From: a virus
Taxonomy: Duplodnaviria; Heunggongvirae; Uroviricota; Caudoviricetes
IMG/VR virus record: IMGVR_UViG_2531839661_000004
Reading direction: 5' to 3' (one strand)
DNA length: 64,000 nt
Position numbers: made by a program. This document shows, in pieces, positions 57,001 through 63,000 of this stretch (position 1 is its first letter; every line of letters begins with the position of its first letter).

Positions 57001-60000
57001 CCTCAGAGCCGGGTTTTTTATTAACCCAGCTAGCCAAAACTCATCTATCCTAGCTTCTATACCCCTTCATACTTGATAACCGTCGCTCACCGAACAAGCA
57101 ATAATAATTAACTAAAAATCAAAAACATAGAATTCCCCCACAATAATTTTAACTTTGAGTTATTGACTAACACTAACCAACGGTTAATAATCATTTTACC
57201 AACAGGTCACCGATAACAACGCGGTCCCAATTGGAAAGCTCTTTAAACAACGTCGAACACTCGACTACGTGGCTGCAAAGCCAGATCGCCCAACCGCATA
57301 AGCTGTCGGGTGCAATGCCGAAGCAATCATCTCAGGGGAGGCTTCGAGATTGCATCGCCAAAGTTTATTCGGGAGAAATCTATGTCCAGAAAAACAGAAT
57401 TTAAAGGCACCGCAGCTTCCCGCCGCAGAGCACACCGGGCTGAGCTTCAGAGTCTGGAGGCATCAAGCGCTGATAAACTGCACCGCCCCACACCTTCACG
57501 GGTGTACTTACAGTGCAAACGCAAAGCCGCAATGCGAGCTGAAGTAGTCACGATAACGACATTAACCAGAAAATATGAAGGCTCTACTTGTCTTCCAAAC
57601 ACTGCACTTTACGCAGCTGGCTATCGCAAATCCGGAACAATAACAGCGAGGTGATTGATGACCACGCCTTCAGTTTTGCCGCAAAAATTATGGCGTCCGC
57701 TTGCAGAGATTAAAAACTTCGTTGAAAAAATGCCTGACGGCGTTCGCCTTACGGAAGTTACTAAAAAAGTTAAGACATTTGCCGAACTGTCAGGAAAGGA
57801 GAGAAACCAGCTCATAGATTTTATCGATAAACGGGAAAGCATCATTGTATTTAAGGTCAGAAAAGAAGGTTCTGGTAACGGAGTAACCTTTTTCCGCCAC
57901 AAAAAATATGGATATCCCAAGCGGGAAGGAAACGTCACAATCATTAAGGACCTTCAATCAAAATTATGTACCAGATGCGGGCAGACAAAATCAGTCGATG
58001 ATTTTTATTCAGATGCCAGCAAACGTGACGGGAGAGCCATTTATTGCAAGAAGTGCGAATCTGCGATGAAACGCTCACGCAGAGAATGCAACAAATTAAT
58101 TCTGCAACAACAGGAACCTGAAATGAATAACCTAAAAGCAGTTTCACCTTCACCAGAAATACTCAGAAAGCAGGCGGAAGAATTGCTGAAAGCCGCCGAA
58201 ATTGCGGAGAAAAAACGCCAGGAAGATGATGTATTCAACAAAAAACTTGCGCCCTTAAAACTTGAAATTCTTCAGGCCGCCGGAAAAATGCAGCTTAAAC
58301 TGGACGAATTCATCGACTGTATGGATGAAATGAATAAAGCAGTTCAGAAGCTTAAAGAGCTGACCGCCTGATATTAATAAATTGCAACTACCGGAGTTAA
58401 CTATGAACGAAACAGAACTGAAGCACATTATCGCCCTGCTTCTGGAAGATGCCAGACAGGTTTATCGACTTAGCCCAAACTCCGCAACGCAGGAACGCAT
58501 CCGGATGGCAGAAAAAGCGCTGAAACAGGAGAGTGAAAATAACATATCCGAAGTTAGCGCGAATGGTGAAAATGAAGCAATAGAAATAAACAGCAATATC
58601 AGCGACGGCGTAATAGCTTCATCCCACAAGACAATTCTCATGGGCGCACGACTTCTGGAGGTGATTACGAGTGAGCTTGAAAAGAACGGTATCAAGCCCA
58701 CCCCTTGTTATTTAGAGTGTGTGTTAAATGTTATTGCTTACTCGATGTTCCGTCGGTGACAGATGAAAGTTTTCGATCAAGGAATGTTTCAAGTGCATCG
58801 TAAATAATGGAAATCGCCCCAGACGCCTGAGTGACAACCCCGCTGCAACATCCATGTATCAATATCCTCTTTGGCGGACATCGGTTTGCCGATTGCTGAT
58901 GTCCGCCCTTTTTAAAAGTGAATTTTATGATGCGGTGAATGCGGCTATGCGCACGCGGAACAGTTAAACCGACAGGATGTCACGGAAAATCATCATCCCC
59001 TGCTCCGGCGTTAATTGTTAACTGGTTAACGTCACCTGGAGGCACCAGGCACCGCATCAACAAAGTTCATTTGTGAAAATGGAGATAATTATGATTGCTC
59101 ATCACTTCGGAACTGATGAAATACCACGTCAGTGCGTGACACCTGGCGATTATGTTCTTCATGAAGGCCGCACATATATCGCTTCAGCAAACAATATTGA
59201 AAAGAGAAAACTCTATATTCGTAGCCTGACTACAAAAACATGCATTACCGACTGCATGATTAAAGTTTTCATCGGGCGCGATGGCTTACCTGTAAAAGCA
59301 GAGTAGTTGTGACGAGTAATAAAATACACCTTCCATATCTGTAACAGACAAACCGAAATAAAAACCACATTAATTATCAATCACGGGAAAATCAAAATGA
59401 AAGAACTTGCGCAAAATGAAATTTTTTCCGAAACCAGTCCTGATGCAATAAATGAACTCAAAGAAATTGCAGAACGCATCAGTAAAATATGCAAAAAACA
59501 CAAAATCGACTTTGTATTTTCTTTTTCAGTGCTTACAGAAGTTGGAAATAACGAATATAAAGACAGTCGCTTTGTTTCCTTCGGTTTATATTGCGAAACC
59601 ACCAGCCCATATATTCATGCTGCATCTGAAATTGTCGACAGTCATATTGATCCACAAAGAATTCAGGAACTGACCCTGGCACTTCAACTTCTCAGAGAAA
59701 ATGGCGAATGCAACTGCTCTGACTGCCAGCATGAAAAGAAAAAAACAACTCACAAAACAACAAACCAGGCAACCTTACACTGAAATAAAAAATCCGGCAG
59801 CGCAGGCTACCGGACTCCCCCCTGCGTCACTGTATTCGGAGAAATCAGACAAAGGGCCGCTAATTCTAATCCAGCCAGAGGTTTAAATACAATGAGCGCT
59901 GATAAACAAACTTTTGCACTGCACTGCGAAGCAAAAAACGATAAAGTCAGAAAACGCCTTGGCATCAAAGGCGGTTTTTTCTGGGCTGATACCAGAAAAC

Positions 60001-63000
60001 TTTCTGTCGCAGTTTCCCGCTGCATTGCAGCCATGGACGATGCAGGCTACGACGAGGATGATTTCAAAAAACCCGTTCGCGTAAATTTCCCCGTCGTGAA
60101 TGACCTTCCACCGGAAGGCGTGTTTGATACTGAATTCTGCAACCGCTATGAAAAAGGCGGGGAAGATGGCATCACCATGATGGCAATCCCCTTCGATGAC
60201 AACATCAACGGTGAAGATGCCACAACAGCTGGCGATGACTACGATAACCTGGACGGAACTATTCCGGATGATGTGGAGAAAAGCGAATCCCCGGACAGCG
60301 ACGATGACTGTTCTGAGTGTGAAATTCCCGTCGCCACTCTGAGCCTTACTCATCGCTTCCTTCACCTCTTCTTCTTCAGCAAAGATGAAGATGGAAAATA
60401 CCGGCATCACGCCACACCCGAACAACGAAATAACGTGATCCGTATGGAGATGGACACAGAAGACAGTTACCTTCAGAGCCTGCTTACTGCTGTGCGTTCA
60501 CATCCAGAGCTGGATAAGCTGACGAATTATCATCTGGGAAGACTGGCACAATCCGTTGGAAAGGCATTCTCTCACGCAACACCCCGTCATATCAGCCCGG
60601 CCGAATTCGACAAGTTCATCTCCACCTGGATGAAAACAGACTATGTGGATCAGGGATTGCTGGCAAAAGAATGGCAGAAAGGAAATTATGTTACAGGCAT
60701 CACTCGTACGCCTTCCGGTGCTAACGCTGGCGGCGGAAATCTTACCGATCGTGGCGAAGGCTTTACCCACAATCAGGCATCACTGGCGCGAGACATTGCC
60801 ACTGGCGTTCTGGCCCGTTCAATGGATGTGGATATTTATAACCTGCACCCTGCACATGCAAAACGCGTTGAAGAAATCGTTGCAGAGAATAAACCGCCCT
60901 TTTCTGTTTTCCGTGACAAATTCATCGCCATGCCCGGTGGGCTGGATTATTCCCGCGCCATTGTGGTGGCTTCAGTGAAAGAAGCACCAATTGGCATTGA
61001 GGCTATCCCGGCGCGCGTGACTGAATATCTCAACAAAGTGTTGACCGAAACCGATCACTCTAACCCGGATCCGGAAATCGTGGAAATTGCCTGCGGTCGC
61101 TCATCAGCCCCGATGCCGCAGCGCGGAACAGCAGAAGAGATACATGACGATGAAGAAAAGCAGCAAACATCGGACGCAATGTCTAATGAACAGGCAGCGC
61201 CTGAATCAGTGGAAGAAATTCCAGTTAAACATAATGCGGACACGCAATCACTGGAAAATGTCTCATCTGTAGAAACGAAATACCAGGAACTGAGAGCAGA
61301 ACTCTATGAAGCCAGGAAAAACATTTTGCCCAAAAATCCTGTCGATGCAGACAAATTGCTGGCTGCCTCTCGTGGGGAGTTCGTTGAAGGCATCAGCGAC
61401 CCAACCGACCCGAAATGGGTGAAGGGGATCCAGACTCGCGACACTGAGGACCAGAATCAATCCAAAGTGGAACAAAACAGCCCGGATACGCAACAAAACG
61501 GACCGGAAGAGCAACAGCCTGGGCCAGTAATGCAACAGGAAGTGGAAAAGGTTTGCACCGCATGCGGTCAGAACAGTGGCGGGCATTGCCCTGACTGTGG
61601 TCCAGTAATGGGAGATGAAACTTACGCTGAAACTTTTGGAGAAAATGAGACCGCTGCTGGAGATGACCAGGCACAAATGAAGAATGAATACATTCAGAAA
61701 AATGCTGTTGATACAACTCAGGAACACGATTCGGTTGTTCACATCGATCCAGATAGTGATGCTTCTGACAATAATGATGATTCAGAGCAAGCAGATTTCG
61801 ACTGGAAAAGGCAACTCGTGCTTGCAGCCGTCTATGGTTTGTGCGCAAACCCTGCATGCGTCGCAACAGCGCCAGCAATCCCTGATATCGCAATCATGAT
61901 TGCCAACAGGCTTGAAAATTTTGGAGGTGATAAATCATGAATGCCTGGCTTATCCCCGATCGCATTGAAGAGCAGTCATGGGCACGACACTACCGGCAAA
62001 TTGCCCGTGAAGAAAATGAGACTGAACTGGCGGACGACCTGGAAAAAGGTCTGCCCCAGCACCTGTTTGAATCGCTGTGCATCGATAATCTGCAACGTCA
62101 TGGAGCCAGCAAAAAAGCCATTGCCCGTGCATTTGATGACGATGTCGATTTTCAGGAACGCATGGCAGAACACATCCGGTACATGGTTGAAACCATTGCC
62201 CGCCACCAGATTTATATTGATTCAGAGGTATAAACCAGATGAGTACAGCTCTCGCAACGCTGGCAGGGAAGCTGGCTGAACGTGTCGGCATGGATTCTGT
62301 CGACCCACAGGAACTGATCACCACTCTTCGCCAGACTGCATTTAAAGGTGATGCCAGCGATGCGCAGTTCATCGCATTGCTGATCGTTGCCAACCAGTAC
62401 GGCCTTAATCCATGGACGAAAGAAATTTACGCCTTCCCTGATAAGCAGAACGGCATCGTTCCGGTGGTGGGCGTTGATGGCTGGTCCCGCATTATCAACG
62501 AAAACCAGCAGTTTGATGGCATGGACTTTGAGCAGGACGATGAATCCTGTACATGTCGGATTTACCGCAAAGACCGTAATCATCCGATCTGTGTTACCGA
62601 ATGGATGGATGAATGCCGCCGCGCACCATTCAAAACTCGCGAAGGCAGAGAAATCACGGGGCCGTGGCAGTCGCATCCCAAACGGATGTTACGGCATAAA
62701 GCCATGATTCAGTGTGCCCGTCTGGCCTTCGGATTTGCTGGTATCTATGACAAGGATGAAGCCGAACGCATTGTCGAAAATACCGCATATACTACAGAAC
62801 GTCAGCCGGAACGCGACATCACCCCGGTTAACGAAGAGACCATGTCGGAAATTAACGCCCTTCTTACTTCCATGGAAAAAACGTGGGACGACGACCTCTT
62901 GCCGCTCTGTTCCCAGATATTTCGCCGCTACATTCGAGCGTCGTCAGAACTGTCCCAGGCCGAAGCAGAGAAGGTTCTTGGATTCCTGAAACAGAAAGCC

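What the first reader, a model, noticed from the sequence alone, without database searches (positions are those of the whole stretch)
57655..61940. Uncharacterised gene set in the pL operon between N and gam, including a 682-aa acidic protein
In lambda this slot holds exclusion and anti-defence genes (ral, sieB, kil). Here it holds two zinc-ribbon/unknown ORFs, a tL1-like terminator, two AT-rich small genes and a 682-aa acidic protein with a CTACG...CPDCG cluster that overlaps gam. None matches a function I recognise, so these are good candidates for host-takeover or anti-defence roles.
Basis: inference. Interest (0 to 1): 0.5.

Follow-up and report, generated by a model that had tools for sequence, protein, structure and literature searches.

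The report
Nuclease-less RecE relative beside lambda Red
The stretch between N and gam of this Shiga-toxin prophage is an already sequenced patchwork of lambda-like and Rac-like early genes, and its large acidic protein is the non-catalytic front two-thirds of the RecE recombination exonuclease without the nuclease, kept by selection for a role nobody has yet determined.

Summary
The ORFs, the hairpin and the gam overlap are all real and at the stated coordinates. The set is not unrecognisable, though.

- **Origin.** The window is an Stx1 prophage. The interval is 100% identical to the E. coli 2013C-4282 chromosome and 99% identical to Shigella phages 75/02 Stx and POCJ13.
- **77-aa ORF.** This is KilR, the Rac-type division inhibitor.
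- **682-aa protein.** It is homologous to residues ~43-570 of RecE (exonuclease VIII), the part of RecE whose function is unknown. A 45-residue helical tail replaces the PD-(D/E)XK nuclease domain. An ATGA overlap couples the gene to gam-bet-exo.
- **Not a fresh truncation.** Hundreds of 680-700-aa homologues exist and dN/dS is about 0.25. Relatives carry the same module fused to two unrelated exonuclease folds, or carry it alone in lambdoid phages that have no recombination genes.
- **Annotation.** Databases call it "exodeoxyribonuclease VIII", which is wrong. A 2025 paper noted such "RecE-2" proteins and left their role open.
- **Other ORFs.** ORF1 is a predicted winged-helix, zinc-ribbon, coiled-coil protein. 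ORF2 and ORF4 remain unknown.

I found no evidence for or against an anti-defence role. This is an ordinary, already catalogued mosaic. It is of modest interest as a natural separation of RecE's N-terminal module from its nuclease.

The parts
57382..57654 (+). Antiterminator N, the left boundary of the finding. The lambda/Stx-phage-like DNA ends at 57654.
   Evidence: Pfam N_peptide 5.9e-26. blastn to VT2-Sakai covers 57232-57654 at 83%. RefSeq annotates the CDS at these coordinates.
57658..58371 (+). ORF1, 237 aa, basic (pI 9.5). Predicted winged helix (aa 9-81), zinc ribbon (aa ~93-130), disordered linker, and one long helix (aa 166-236). Function unknown; probably a dimeric DNA-binding early protein.
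   Evidence: phrog_2539, unknown function, 1e-130. AF2 model pLDDT 83. Foldseek finds only weak winged-helix matches: Rpc34, RTP, PadR, BlaI, E 0.05-0.5. The zinc ribbon is an optional insert, absent from the ~198-aa family members. dN/dS 0.13.
58403..58759 (+). ORF2, 118 aa, function unknown. Only its N-terminal ~42 residues are widely conserved.
   Evidence: phrog_2982 at 6e-67; phrogs 30817, 12693 and 32391 match only aa 8-49. Among phage records it occurs only in the 75/02, POCJ13, PhiR5_2 and phiSTEC1589 group, plus a partial match in phiES15. dN/dS 0.40.
58873..58913 (+). Intrinsic terminator, the tL1 analogue: 13-bp G+C-rich stem, 9-nt loop, C+U5 tail.
   Evidence: Sequence. RNA fold of the surrounding 106 nt gives MFE -28 kcal/mol, z -2.4. 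Homology to Rac starts at 58895, inside the 3' arm.
58907..59105 (+). Leader of kil with a sub-threshold match to the prophage sRNA family STnc100 (related to PasD).
   Evidence: Rfam RF02076: 32.2 bits against a gathering score of 47, E 2.7e-4, full model length. 88% identical to the region upstream of kilR in Rac-SA53.
59091..59306 (+). kilR, encoding the Rac-type cell-division and elongation inhibitor, 71 aa.
   Evidence: NCBIfam NF008465 'FtsZ inhibitor protein' 153 bits, cut-off 92. phrog_294 3.5e-37. 96% identical to Rac-SA53 KilR, dN/dS 0.04.
59397..59783 (+). ORF4, 128 aa, GC 0.375, function unknown. It sits where Rac carries ydaE and racC but is unrelated to RacC.
   Evidence: phrog_2016, unknown function, 3e-67. 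No BLASTP similarity to RacC. 26 clusters; every source name given is E. coli, all 'hypothetical'. dN/dS 0.38-0.43.
59892..61940 (+). The recE-2 gene: a 682-aa nuclease-less RecE relative (whole gene).
   Evidence: PF06630 4.9e-12. phrog_607: aa 1-680 match profile positions 1-618 of 883. NF007259: 744.7 bits against a cut-off of 1269, matching profile 1-593 of 877. 62% identical to RecE aa 43-570. No RecE nuclease hit in this protein's own cluster or its 119 closest clusters. dN/dS 0.22-0.29.
59892..60191 (+). RecE-2 aa 1-100: confidently modelled alpha/beta domain.
60324..61136 (+). RecE-2 aa 145-415: all-helical core, the most conserved part of the family. Motifs: SGANAGGGxxTDR, DxDIYN, PGxLDYSRA.
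   Evidence: AF2 pLDDT mostly above 90. Invariant columns in alignment A3. dN/dS 0.07-0.20. No relative in the PDB by sequence, profile or fold, and none in BFVD.
61554..61598 (+). RecE-2 zinc-ribbon motif CTAC-x7-CPDC (Cys555, 558, 566, 569) inside an acidic disordered linker. It is also present in Rac-SA53 RecE.
   Evidence: Cys positions. Aligned with CAACGQTGGGNCPDCG of RecE. Present in only some relatives. Low pLDDT.
61800..61916 (+). RecE-2 aa 637-675: C-terminal helical hairpin 'tail' (LAAVYGLCANPA...IPDIAIMIANRL). It occupies the place of the nuclease domain.
   Evidence: AF2 helices 637-652 and 654-675, pLDDT ~60-70. The motif xQQLTIAALQGLCANPA..DDIPxMA is conserved in many distant homologues. 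phrog_26058 1.7e-13 for a distant tail. Not a conserved transmembrane segment.
61937..62233 (+). gam (GamS-length, 98 aa). Its start overlaps the recE-2 stop (ATGA).
   Evidence: Pfam Gam 1.7e-62. Overlap. All 19 IMG/VR loci whose protein carries this tail are followed by gam.
62239..63701 (+). bet (62239-63024) and exo (63021-63701), an intact lambda Red pair. This is context, outside the finding.
   Evidence: 95-98% amino-acid identity to the VT2-Sakai and PhiR5_2 genes, dN/dS 0.03-0.14. Annotation.

Best explanation
**Shown.**

The interval is a mosaic early-left (pL) segment of an Stx1-converting lambdoid prophage. In order it holds:

- N, then two group-specific genes: ORF1 (winged helix, zinc ribbon, coiled coil) and ORF2.
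- An intrinsic terminator.
- A Rac-derived block: an STnc100-like leader and kilR.
- ORF4.
- A 682-aa 'RecE-2' protein.
- Lambda gam-bet-exo.

RecE-2 is the non-catalytic N-terminal region of RecE/exonuclease VIII. It has an alpha/beta domain, a helical core, acidic disordered linkers and a zinc ribbon. It ends in a 45-residue helical hairpin instead of the PD-(D/E)XK nuclease domain. It is not an exonuclease, and it is not a recent wreck. It belongs to an old, selection-maintained architecture that is translationally coupled to gam.

**Inferred (about 0.4 on its own).**

The RecE N-module is an autonomous, non-catalytic adaptor that acts on DNA ends or on a host DNA-end-processing factor. Phages attach it in cis to a 5'-3' PD-(D/E)XK nuclease (as in RecE) or to a 3'-5' DEDDh nuclease, or they deploy it alone with the hairpin tail. 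In this phage it would supply in trans, next to Red, the activity that makes full-length RecE better than its bare nuclease domain at joining two linear DNAs.

**Also inferred.**

ORF1 and ORF2 lie upstream of the terminator, so they would be made together with N. kilR, ORF4, recE-2 and Red would need N-mediated read-through.
For: **Identity**
- 100% identical to the E. coli 2013C-4282 chromosome and 99% identical to phages 75/02 Stx and POCJ13.
- KilR passes NF008465 at 153 bits against a cut-off of 92.
- RecE homology: PF06630, phrog_607, and 62% identity to RecE aa 43-570.

**No nuclease**
- NF007259 coverage stops at profile position 593 of 877, and the score of 745 is below the 1269 cut-off.
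- There is no PF12684 hit.
- phmmer with the RecE nuclease domain hits none of the 120 closest clusters, the protein's own included.
- The AF2 model has only two helices after residue 583.

**Functional, not decaying**
- dN/dS is 0.22-0.29 overall and 0.07-0.20 in the folded parts.
- More than 100 clusters of 680-700 aa at 79-100% identity cover the full length.
- The tail motif is conserved down to about 30% core identity in Citrobacter, Lelliottia, Buttiauxella and Cedecea prophages.

**Module swap**
- Among 80 IMG/VR loci with a closely related core, 52 proteins carry the nuclease. None of those 52 is followed by gam, bet or exo, and 26 are followed by an SA53-type recT.
- All 19 tail-bearing proteins lack the nuclease and are followed by gam.
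- The DNA breakpoints are mapped.

**Adaptor idea**
- The same N-module is fused to the Rv2179c-like DEDDh exonuclease (P0123, P0145, P0154) or to PDDEXK DUF3799 (P0125, P0137), or it stands alone.
- Stand-alone forms occur in complete lambdoid early-left operons with no annealing protein and no nuclease.
- The review PMC11611040 states that the RecE N-terminal domain is of unknown function, and that full-length RecE enhances linear-linear recombination.
- PMC12315714 notes nuclease-less 'RecE-2' proteins of unknown role in lambdoid Rec modules.

**Terminator:**
Against: - No biochemical or genetic datum bears directly on this protein.
- The folded domains have no relative in the PDB or BFVD, so the fold gives no hint of DNA or protein binding.
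- Distant stand-alone homologues live in phages with no Red or RecET genes at all. The module therefore does not need a phage recombinase. That weakens any reading in which it is purely a Red accessory and leaves room for a host-directed or anti-defence role.
- The glycine-rich SGANAGGG..TDR motif is invariant in one large subgroup but absent in others, so a catalytic function in that subgroup cannot be excluded.
- The effect of the RecE N-terminus on linear-linear recombination is known to me only for the cis configuration.
- The terminator and the early/delayed-early split rest on sequence alone.
Confidence: 0.6

Rival explanations
1. The set, or at least RecE-2, ORF1, ORF2 or ORF4, consists of host-takeover or anti-defence factors. 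Such factors would, for example, inhibit a host nuclease-based defence or host repair enzyme, possibly through the strongly acidic, DNA-mimic-like disordered linkers of RecE-2.
For: - The position is the pL accessory slot, and one member (KilR) is a proven host-directed toxin (PMC12482147 listed).
- The RecE-2 linkers have pI ~4.05 with 18 D/E in 44 residues and 15 in 52.
- Stand-alone RecE-2 homologues are the only large early-left gene in lambdoids that lack recombination genes. They therefore act without a phage partner, presumably on the host.
- ORF4 is AT-rich, seen only in E. coli, and fast-evolving: 65-99% identity, dN/dS ~0.4.
Against: - There is no similarity to any defence-system protein in PADLOC.
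- ORF1's zinc ribbon matches the PHROG 'Lar-like restriction alleviation' family only through the generic CxxC...CxxC ribbon.
- ORF1 shows no significant similarity to Rac RalR (E 0.68).
- That ribbon is an optional insert in the ORF1 family.
- The phage already carries gam against RecBCD.
- The tools held no anti-defence protein library, so this rival is untested rather than refuted.
Confidence: 0.25
2. RecE-2 works specifically with the neighbouring Red proteins. Its hairpin tail would dock onto lambda Exo, Bet or Gam and so rebuild a 'split RecE'.
For: - In E. coli and Shigella phages the tail and gam-bet-exo always travel together: 19 of 19 loci, against 0 of 52 for nuclease-bearing RecE.
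- Two different junctions both keep the genes overlapping: a 4-nt ATGA overlap and a 25-nt overlap.
- The tail, gam, bet and exo form one contiguous block shared by two RecE-2 lineages, running from 61798 onward.
Against: The same tail motif ends homologues in 9 genome loci and 42 viral contigs from other Enterobacterales. There the next genes are xis and int, and no gam, bet, exo, recT or RecE nuclease is detectable. The tail therefore cannot depend on Red proteins in general.
Confidence: 0.15
3. RecE-2 is an inert remnant: a recE gene cut off when a lambda Red cassette recombined into a Rac-like operon, and now drifting.
For: It lacks the only part of RecE with a known activity. DNA homology to Rac recE stops abruptly at 61636, inside a disordered linker.
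Against: - dN/dS is 0.22-0.29, with 0.07-0.20 in the folded parts, and there are no internal stops.
- More than 100 full-length clusters of 680-700 aa diverge to 79% identity.
- The replacement tail is itself a conserved domain found in distant genera.
Confidence: 0.04
4. The database annotation is right and the 682-aa protein is an exodeoxyribonuclease VIII.
For: GenBank and RefSeq name it 'exodeoxyribonuclease VIII' or 'RecE family exodeoxyribonuclease'.
Against: - The name is carried over from the N-terminal Pfam domain PF06630.
- The protein fails the NCBIfam equivalog cut-off: 745 bits against 1269.
- It has no PD-(D/E)XK domain by Pfam, phmmer or the structure model.
Confidence: 0.03

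Closest known systems
RecE (exodeoxyribonuclease VIII) of the Rac prophage. The K-12 protein is 866 aa by the review PMC11611040; the Rac-SA53 protein is 1048 aa. By recall, UniProt P15032 is the K-12 protein and PDB 3H4R is its nuclease domain.
   Same: - 62% identical over RecE residues 43-570.
- Same N-terminal Pfam domain PF06630, same helical core, same acidic linkers and same CxxC-x7-CxxC ribbon.
- Same operon position, downstream of kilR.
   Different: - The PD-(D/E)XK nuclease domain is missing and is replaced by a 45-residue helical hairpin.
- The partner genes are gam-bet-exo, not recT.
- The first ~50 residues differ.
'RecE-2' proteins of lambdoid phages (Genome Res 2025, PMC12315714)
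   Same: That paper describes them as distant relatives of Rac and Gifsy-1 RecE that lack a nuclease domain by fold analysis, lie in or near the Rec module, and have an unknown role. The window protein fits each point.
   Different: The paper's supplementary tables are not held, so I could not confirm that 75/02 Stx or POCJ13 were among its examples.
- The conserved tail motif.
- The alternative fusions to DEDDh exonucleases.
- The occurrence in phages without recombination genes.
Early-left regions of Shigella phages 75/02 Stx and POCJ13, and of Escherichia phages PhiR5_2 and phiSTEC1589-Stx1c
   Same: The gene order is the same: N, ORF1, ORF2, kil, ORF4, recE-2, gam, bet, exo. DNA identity is 99%, 99%, 91% and 92% respectively.
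   Different: - phiSTEC1589 keeps a ydaE homologue between kil and ORF4 that the window lacks.
- PhiR5_2 has a different immunity region.
KilR of Rac
   Same: 96% amino-acid identity and the same leader sequence. It passes NF008465.
   Different: It ends two residues earlier (PVKAE against PVKAESW). ydaE and racC do not follow it.
Lambda tL1 and N antitermination (established lambda biology, from my own knowledge)
   Same: An intrinsic terminator early in the pL operon, downstream of N.
   Different: Two genes (ORF1 and ORF2) lie between N and the terminator. Function was not tested.
P22 Abc1, Abc2 and Arf: non-catalytic accessory proteins of a phage recombination module (mentioned in PMC12315714)
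   Same: This is a 'works like' comparison only. They are accessory proteins encoded inside the Rec module that aid recombination, and Abc1 and Arf have no known molecular function. That Abc2 acts on host RecBCD is my own recollection, not a session result.

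Membership tests
RecE / exodeoxyribonuclease VIII (NCBIfam NF007259 equivalog) | N-terminal Exonuc_VIII region (Pfam PF06630) | tested here: met
   46.6 bits against a cut-off of 25, E 4.9e-12, aa 53-197.
RecE / exodeoxyribonuclease VIII (NCBIfam NF007259 equivalog) | Whole-protein score above the curated equivalog cut-off | tested here: not met
   744.7 bits against a cut-off of 1269. The match covers profile positions 1-593 of 877 only.
RecE / exodeoxyribonuclease VIII (NCBIfam NF007259 equivalog) | C-terminal PD-(D/E)XK nuclease domain (Pfam PF12684 type; the crystallised RecE domain) | tested here: not met
   - No Pfam hit.
- phmmer with the RecE C-terminal 428 aa finds nothing in this protein's own cluster or its 119 closest clusters.
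- No match to the PDB RecE chain.
- The model shows only a two-helix hairpin after residue 583.
RecE / exodeoxyribonuclease VIII (NCBIfam NF007259 equivalog) | Adjacent recT annealing partner | tested here: not met
   The downstream genes are gam, bet and exo. In IMG/VR loci recT follows only nuclease-bearing forms.
Nuclease-less 'RecE-2' proteins (PMC12315714) | Homology to RecE, absence of a nuclease fold, and location in the lambdoid early-left or Rec region | tested here: met
.
Tail-bearing subclass of RecE-N proteins (defined here) | C-terminal hairpin motif Q-L-x-x-A-A-x-x-G-[LM]-C-A-N-P ... [IL]-P-x-[MI]-A | tested here: met
   The window has RQLVLAAVYGLCANPACVATAPAIPDIAIMIA. Alignment A4 has invariant A, A, G, N and P. 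phrog_26058 matches distant tails at 1.7e-13.
KilR / Kil FtsZ inhibitor (NCBIfam NF008465, phrog_294) | Whole-protein score above the curated cut-off | tested here: met
   153.3 bits against a cut-off of 92. phrog_294 3.5e-37.
Lar / RalR restriction alleviation proteins (considered for ORF1) | Sequence similarity beyond the generic zinc ribbon | tested here: not met
   - phrog_5558 matches only aa 100-163, at 1e-9.
- No Pfam Lar hit.
- BLASTP against Rac-SA53 RalR gives E 0.68.
- The ribbon is absent from many ORF1 homologues.
Endonuclease VII / HNH endonucleases (considered for ORF1) | Catalytic beta-beta-alpha-Me or HNH domain | tested here: not met
   PHROG matches (1035, 2340, 2255, 2633) cover only the zinc-ribbon stretch, aa ~97-189. 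There is no Pfam nuclease domain. The model has a winged helix, a ribbon and one long helix.
Known anti-phage defence systems (PADLOC-DB) | A significant match of any of the five proteins | tested here: not met
   The only hit is ORF2 to a 2TM effector model at E 0.0047 and 14.6 bits. ORF2 has no hydrophobic segment, so I treat this as chance.
Known anti-defence proteins | Homology to a characterised inhibitor | not testable with these tools
   No anti-defence library is available. The PHROG 'host takeover' category was hit only by kil, gam and the ORF1 ribbon.
Intrinsic (Rho-independent) terminator | A G+C-rich stem-loop directly followed by a U tract | tested here: met
   13-bp stem, 9-nt loop, then C+UUUUU. 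The 106-nt fold gives MFE -28 kcal/mol. Termination itself was not tested.
STnc100 sRNA (Rfam RF02076) | Score at or above Rfam's gathering threshold | tested here: inconclusive
   32.2 bits against a threshold of 47, E 2.7e-4, full model length. STnc100 and PasD are described as divergent prophage sRNAs.

The most novel reading that the evidence does not exclude
The N-terminal two-thirds of RecE would be a free-standing functional unit with a fold absent from the PDB and BFVD libraries searched here. Lambdoid phages would bolt it onto different exonucleases or use it alone.

In this phage the free form sits next to a complete Red system. That makes it a natural trans-acting version of the part of RecE that makes it efficient at joining two linear DNAs, the basis of RecET direct cloning.

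Its real activity might be an undescribed way of handling DNA ends or of capturing a host end-processing enzyme. Alternatively it might be a new anti-nuclease function.
Probability: 0.35. Interest if true: 0.55.

Novelty: already known. Interest (0 to 1): 0.3.

Why it matters
**Annotation.** Hundreds of E. coli and Shigella genome records, and the phage records, call this protein an exodeoxyribonuclease. It has no nuclease domain, so any inference drawn from that name (for example "this phage has two recombination exonucleases") is wrong.

**An open question becomes easier to test.**
- The role of RecE's large N-terminal region is still listed as unknown in a 2023 review (PMC11611040), although full-length RecE is better than the bare nuclease domain at linear-linear recombination.
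- It is fused to two unrelated nuclease folds in other phages.
- It also occurs in phages with no recombinase at all.
- A gain- or loss-of-function test of the N-module alone is therefore feasible in a phage, PhiR5_2, whose record gives E. coli K-12 MG1655 as host.

**Everything else.** The rest of the interval is the ordinary mosaicism of lambdoid early-left operons.

Tried and rejected
1. **Solved relatives of the RecE N-module.** All of the following gave nothing usable:
   - phmmer and a profile search against PDB sequences.
   - Foldseek against BFVD: best E 0.65.
   - The AlphaFold-database library was not available.
2. **Tail docks onto Red proteins.** This was suggested by the 19/19 linkage to gam. 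It was weakened when tail-bearing homologues turned up in 9 genome loci and 42 viral contigs without any gam, bet, exo or recT.
3. **Tail as membrane anchor.** The best 19-residue hydropathy is 1.7 in the window protein but only 0.8-0.9 in distant homologues. Rejected.
4. **ORF4 as RacC.** No similarity.
5. **ORF1-ORF2 as a conserved pair.** The gene after the Salmonella ORF1 homologue is unrelated to ORF2.
6. **ORF1 as Lar/RalR or as a nuclease.** Only the generic zinc ribbon matches.
7. **ORF2 weak hits.** SLATT_4 (Pfam, E 0.071) and a PADLOC 2TM effector (E 0.0047) are below any threshold. I treat them as chance.
8. **DicF.** The leader upstream of kil matches DNA upstream of dicB in other prophages, so I looked for DicF. 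Rfam gave no DicF match; it gave only a sub-threshold STnc100 match and a chance BjrC68 match.
9. **Repeats inside 57000-62300.** Nothing beyond chance-level short matches.
10. **Literature.**
    - The original paper on full-length RecE (PubMed 22544021) is not held.
    - One full-text search was swamped by 'receptor'.
    - The supplementary tables of PMC12315714 are not held.
11. **A mis-specified call.** One DNA alignment produced nothing.

Full report
**What is at the coordinates.**

The six-frame ORF list shows a run of + strand genes.

| Feature | Coordinates | Size | Evidence |
|---|---|---|---|
| N | 57382-57654 | 90 aa | Pfam N_peptide 5.9e-26 |
| ORF1 | 57658-58371 | 237 aa | |
| ORF2 | 58403-58759 | 118 aa | |
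| Intergenic gap | 58760-59090 | 331 nt | |
| Small gene (kilR) | 59091-59306 | 71 aa | |
| ORF4 | 59397-59783 | 128 aa | |
| Large ORF (recE-2) | 59892-61940 | 682 aa | |
| gam | 61937-62233 | 98 aa | Pfam Gam 1.7e-62 |
| bet | 62239-63024 | 261 aa | |
| exo | 63021-63701 | 226 aa | |

- The large protein is acidic: pI 4.56, 124 D+E against 66 K+R. It carries Cys555/558/566/569 in the CTACG...CPDCG cluster. Its TGA overlaps the gam ATG.
- The gap holds a 13-bp stem, a 9-nt loop and C+UUUUU at 58873-58913. Folding the surrounding 106 nt gives an MFE of -28 kcal/mol.
- The two small genes are AT-rich, with GC 0.42 and 0.375.

The one correction is that only ORF1 has a zinc ribbon.

**Where it comes from.**

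- The interval is 100% identical to a prophage in the chromosome of E. coli 2013C-4282.
- It is 99% identical to Shigella phages 75/02 Stx and POCJ13, and 91-92% identical to Escherichia phages PhiR5_2 and phiSTEC1589-Stx1c, all with the same gene order.
- stx1A lies at 44264-45082 on the minus strand of the window, so this is an Stx1-converting lambdoid prophage.
- At least 80% of the module is present in 81 of 5426 complete E. coli genomes.

**The small genes.**

*kilR.*
- The 71-aa protein passes NCBIfam NF008465 at 153 bits against a cut-off of 92.
- It hits phrog_294 at 3.5e-37.
- It is 96% identical to the Rac-SA53 protein, with dN/dS 0.04.

*ORF1.*
- It belongs to phrog_2539, of unknown function, and to a family seen in Enterobacterales genomes.
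- The AF2 model (pLDDT 83) shows a winged helix (aa 9-81), a zinc ribbon (aa 93-130) and a single 70-residue helix.
- Foldseek finds only weak winged-helix matches.
- The alignment shows that the ribbon is an optional insert. The N-terminal domain and the C-terminal helix are the conserved parts.
- Its PHROG matches to endonuclease VII, HNH and Lar-like families cover only the ribbon. It is not similar to Rac RalR.

*ORF2 and ORF4.*
- ORF2 (phrog_2982) and ORF4 (phrog_2016) have no informative match in Pfam, NCBIfam, PHROGs or PADLOC.
- Among phage records ORF4 is confined to this small group, and ORF2 has only a partial match outside it.
- ORF4 has 26 clusters; every source name given is E. 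coli.
- ORF4 is unrelated to RacC, which sits at the same position in Rac.

All the small genes evolve under purifying selection, with dN/dS 0.13-0.43.

**The 682-aa protein.**

*It is a relative of RecE.*
- Pfam PF06630 gives 4.9e-12.
- phrog_607 gives 1e-255, with residues 1-680 on profile positions 1-618 of 883.
- It is 62% identical to residues 43-570 of the 1048-aa Rac-SA53 RecE.

*It lacks the nuclease.*
- The NCBIfam equivalog model is matched only over positions 1-593 of 877. The score of 745 bits is far below the 1269 cut-off.
- No PD-(D/E)XK domain is found by Pfam.
- phmmer with the RecE C-terminal domain finds none in this protein's own cluster or its 119 closest clusters.
- There is no match to the PDB RecE chain.

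*The AF2 model.*
- The overall pLDDT is 75, with 332 residues above 90.
- It has a confident alpha/beta domain (aa 1-100) and a confident all-helical core (aa 145-415).
- It has long acidic disordered linkers and a two-helix hairpin at aa 637-675.

**Not a fresh truncation.**

- The closest 120 database clusters are nearly all 680-700 aa, apart from a dozen shorter, mostly partial entries. They reach down to 79% identity at full coverage, and none has the nuclease.
- dN/dS against PhiR5_2 and phiSTEC1589 is 0.22-0.28, falling to 0.07-0.20 in the folded parts.
- A search of 1.8 billion cluster representatives finds 218 related clusters. Their C-termini fall into classes:
  - the RecE PD-(D/E)XK nuclease (24 of 150 listed);
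  - an Rv2179c-like DEDDh 3'-5' exonuclease;
  - a coiled-coil ending;
  - the hairpin motif QQLTIAALQGLCANPA..DDIPxMA.
- The last class is the one carried by the window protein (alignment).
- The protein is therefore a member of an established nuclease-less architecture. The Genome Research 2025 paper on lambdoid Rec modules mentions such "RecE-2" proteins, says they lack a nuclease domain by fold analysis, and says their roles are unknown.

**Mosaic structure.** blastn gives the following map.

| Window coordinates | Affinity |
|---|---|
| 57232-57654 | Stx-phage/lambda-like (nutL, N) |
| 57655-58894 | Group-specific (ORF1, ORF2, 5' arm of the terminator) |
| 58895-59326 | Rac-like (leader, kilR) |
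| 59327-60602 | Group-specific at the DNA level (ORF4 and the first ~237 codons of recE-2) |
| 60603-61636 | Rac recE-like |
| 61798 onward | Tail, gam, bet and exo, shared with a second RecE-2 lineage (L069) |
| 61958-63699 | Lambda-like (gam to exo) |

I classified 80 IMG/VR loci with a closely related core.
- 52 carry the nuclease. None of them is followed by gam, bet or exo, and 26 are followed by an SA53-type recT.
- 19 carry the tail. None of them has a nuclease, and all are followed by gam; 16 of these have the full gam-bet-exo set and the other three have gam only (two end just after it).
- Two junction types both keep the genes overlapping: an ATGA overlap and a 25-nt overlap.

**Is RecE-2 a partner of Red?**

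That linkage suggested the tail might dock onto Exo, Bet or Gam. I tested this by fetching distant tail-bearing homologues.
- In 9 genome loci from Citrobacter, Lelliottia, Buttiauxella and Cedecea, and in 42 viral contigs, the protein is followed by xis and int.
- No gam, bet, exo, recT or RecE nuclease is detectable in those loci.
- One 43.9-kb lambdoid contig (L104) was scanned gene by gene. Its early-left operon reads repressor, TerB-like protein, a 104-aa ORF, RecE-2 (634 aa), a 120-aa ORF, xis, int. It has no annealing protein and no nuclease.

The module therefore works without a phage recombinase. The specific "split RecE" idea loses weight.

**Most likely mechanism.**

*Shown:*
- The protein is not a nuclease.
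- It is under selection.
- It is built from a module that phages combine with two unrelated exonuclease folds or use alone.
- It sits in the recombination and host-takeover part of the early-left operon.

*From the literature:* the RecE N-terminal region is dispensable for exonuclease activity and has no known function. Full-length RecE nevertheless outperforms the nuclease domain in linear-linear recombination (review PMC11611040).

*Inferred:* the N-module is a non-catalytic adaptor that acts on DNA ends or on a host end-processing factor. In this phage it is supplied in trans next to Red. I put about 0.4 on this mechanistic step.

*Alternatives:*
- A host-directed or anti-defence role is a live alternative, at about 0.25. 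The acidic linkers, and the activity in phages without any recombinase, point that way.
- An inert remnant (about 0.04) and a true exonuclease (about 0.03) are nearly excluded.

**Transcription.**

The terminator lies after ORF1 and ORF2. By analogy with lambda tL1, those two genes would be made together with N, and everything downstream would need N-mediated read-through. This is inference from sequence.

The 200 nt between the terminator and kilR give a sub-threshold match to the prophage sRNA family STnc100: 32 bits against a gathering score of 47, E 2.7e-4. A 2026 preprint relates that family to PasD.

**Verdict.**

  - The slot does hold accessory genes, and three of them are still unknown.
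  - Two of the five proteins are recognisable: KilR and the RecE N-terminal region.
  - Nothing points specifically to anti-defence.
- The sequence and its gene families are already catalogued, so novelty is low.
- The residual interest is that a widely mis-annotated "exonuclease" is in fact a free-standing copy of the enigmatic part of RecE. Its function can now be tested on its own.

Noticed in passing
window 58907-59105 (+): The leader between the terminator and kilR gives a full-length but sub-threshold match to the prophage sRNA family STnc100: 32.2 bits against a gathering score of 47, E 2.7e-4. It includes a well-matched hairpin, CACCUGGAGGCACCAGGCACC. A 2026 preprint links STnc100 to the PasD sRNAs of Stx phages.
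   Followed up: partly
window 59307-59396; compare L005 4820-4993: phiSTEC1589-Stx1c and some IMG/VR relatives (L010, L013) carry a ydaE homologue between kil and ORF4. The window has only a 90-nt gap there, so ydaE appears to have been lost.
   Followed up: partly
proteins P0123, P0145, P0154 and others (not in the window): In other phages the RecE N-terminal module is fused to an Rv2179c-like DEDDh 3'-5' exonuclease instead of the PD-(D/E)XK 5'-3' nuclease. The same front end is therefore paired with nucleases of opposite polarity.
   Followed up: partly
L104 (IMGVR_UViG_3300011684_000006), 4117-9679: A complete lambdoid early-left operon whose only large gene is a tail-bearing RecE-N protein. 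It has no annealing protein, no exonuclease and no gam, and a TerB-like 'tellurite resistance' gene lies upstream.
   Followed up: partly
L069, L070, L077, L085 (IMG/VR): A second RecE-2 lineage ends ...ENFGVTDDEHMPDF. This is an acidic tail ending in Pro-Asp-Phe that loosely recalls the SSB C-terminal tip. It overlaps gam by 25 nt. The window protein is cut short before this ending, at ...ENFGGDKS.
   Followed up: no
proteins P0312 and P0332 (ORF1 homologues): Two ORF1-family members carry an AlpA-type helix-turn-helix (PF05930) at the N-terminus, in front of the winged-helix domain in P0312. This fits a DNA-binding or regulatory role for the family.
   Followed up: no
window 54476-54561, 55242-55304, 55336-55394: Three copies of a 40-65-nt repeat (87-100% identical) lie in and just upstream of the O-like replication gene. 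They produce the repeated QPQQPEAD peptides seen in the ORF list. They are possibly origin iterons or a local duplication.
   Followed up: partly
window 57230-57404: RefSeq annotates a 'frameshifted' hypothetical pseudogene that overlaps the nutL region and the first codons of N. It is probably an annotation artefact of the N leader.
   Followed up: no
window 44264-45082 (-): stx1A, 99.6% identical over 273 aa. The window is an Stx1-converting prophage. In the matching genome its integrase lies next to a DMSO/selenate-reductase B-subunit gene and ynfH.
   Followed up: partly
window 58819-59071: This stretch upstream of kil also matches, at about 80%, DNA at prophage loci of many E. coli genomes where the genes annotated under the match are dicB, ydfD and an exonuclease. 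The two division-inhibitor genes may therefore share a leader. No DicF match was found.
   Followed up: partly
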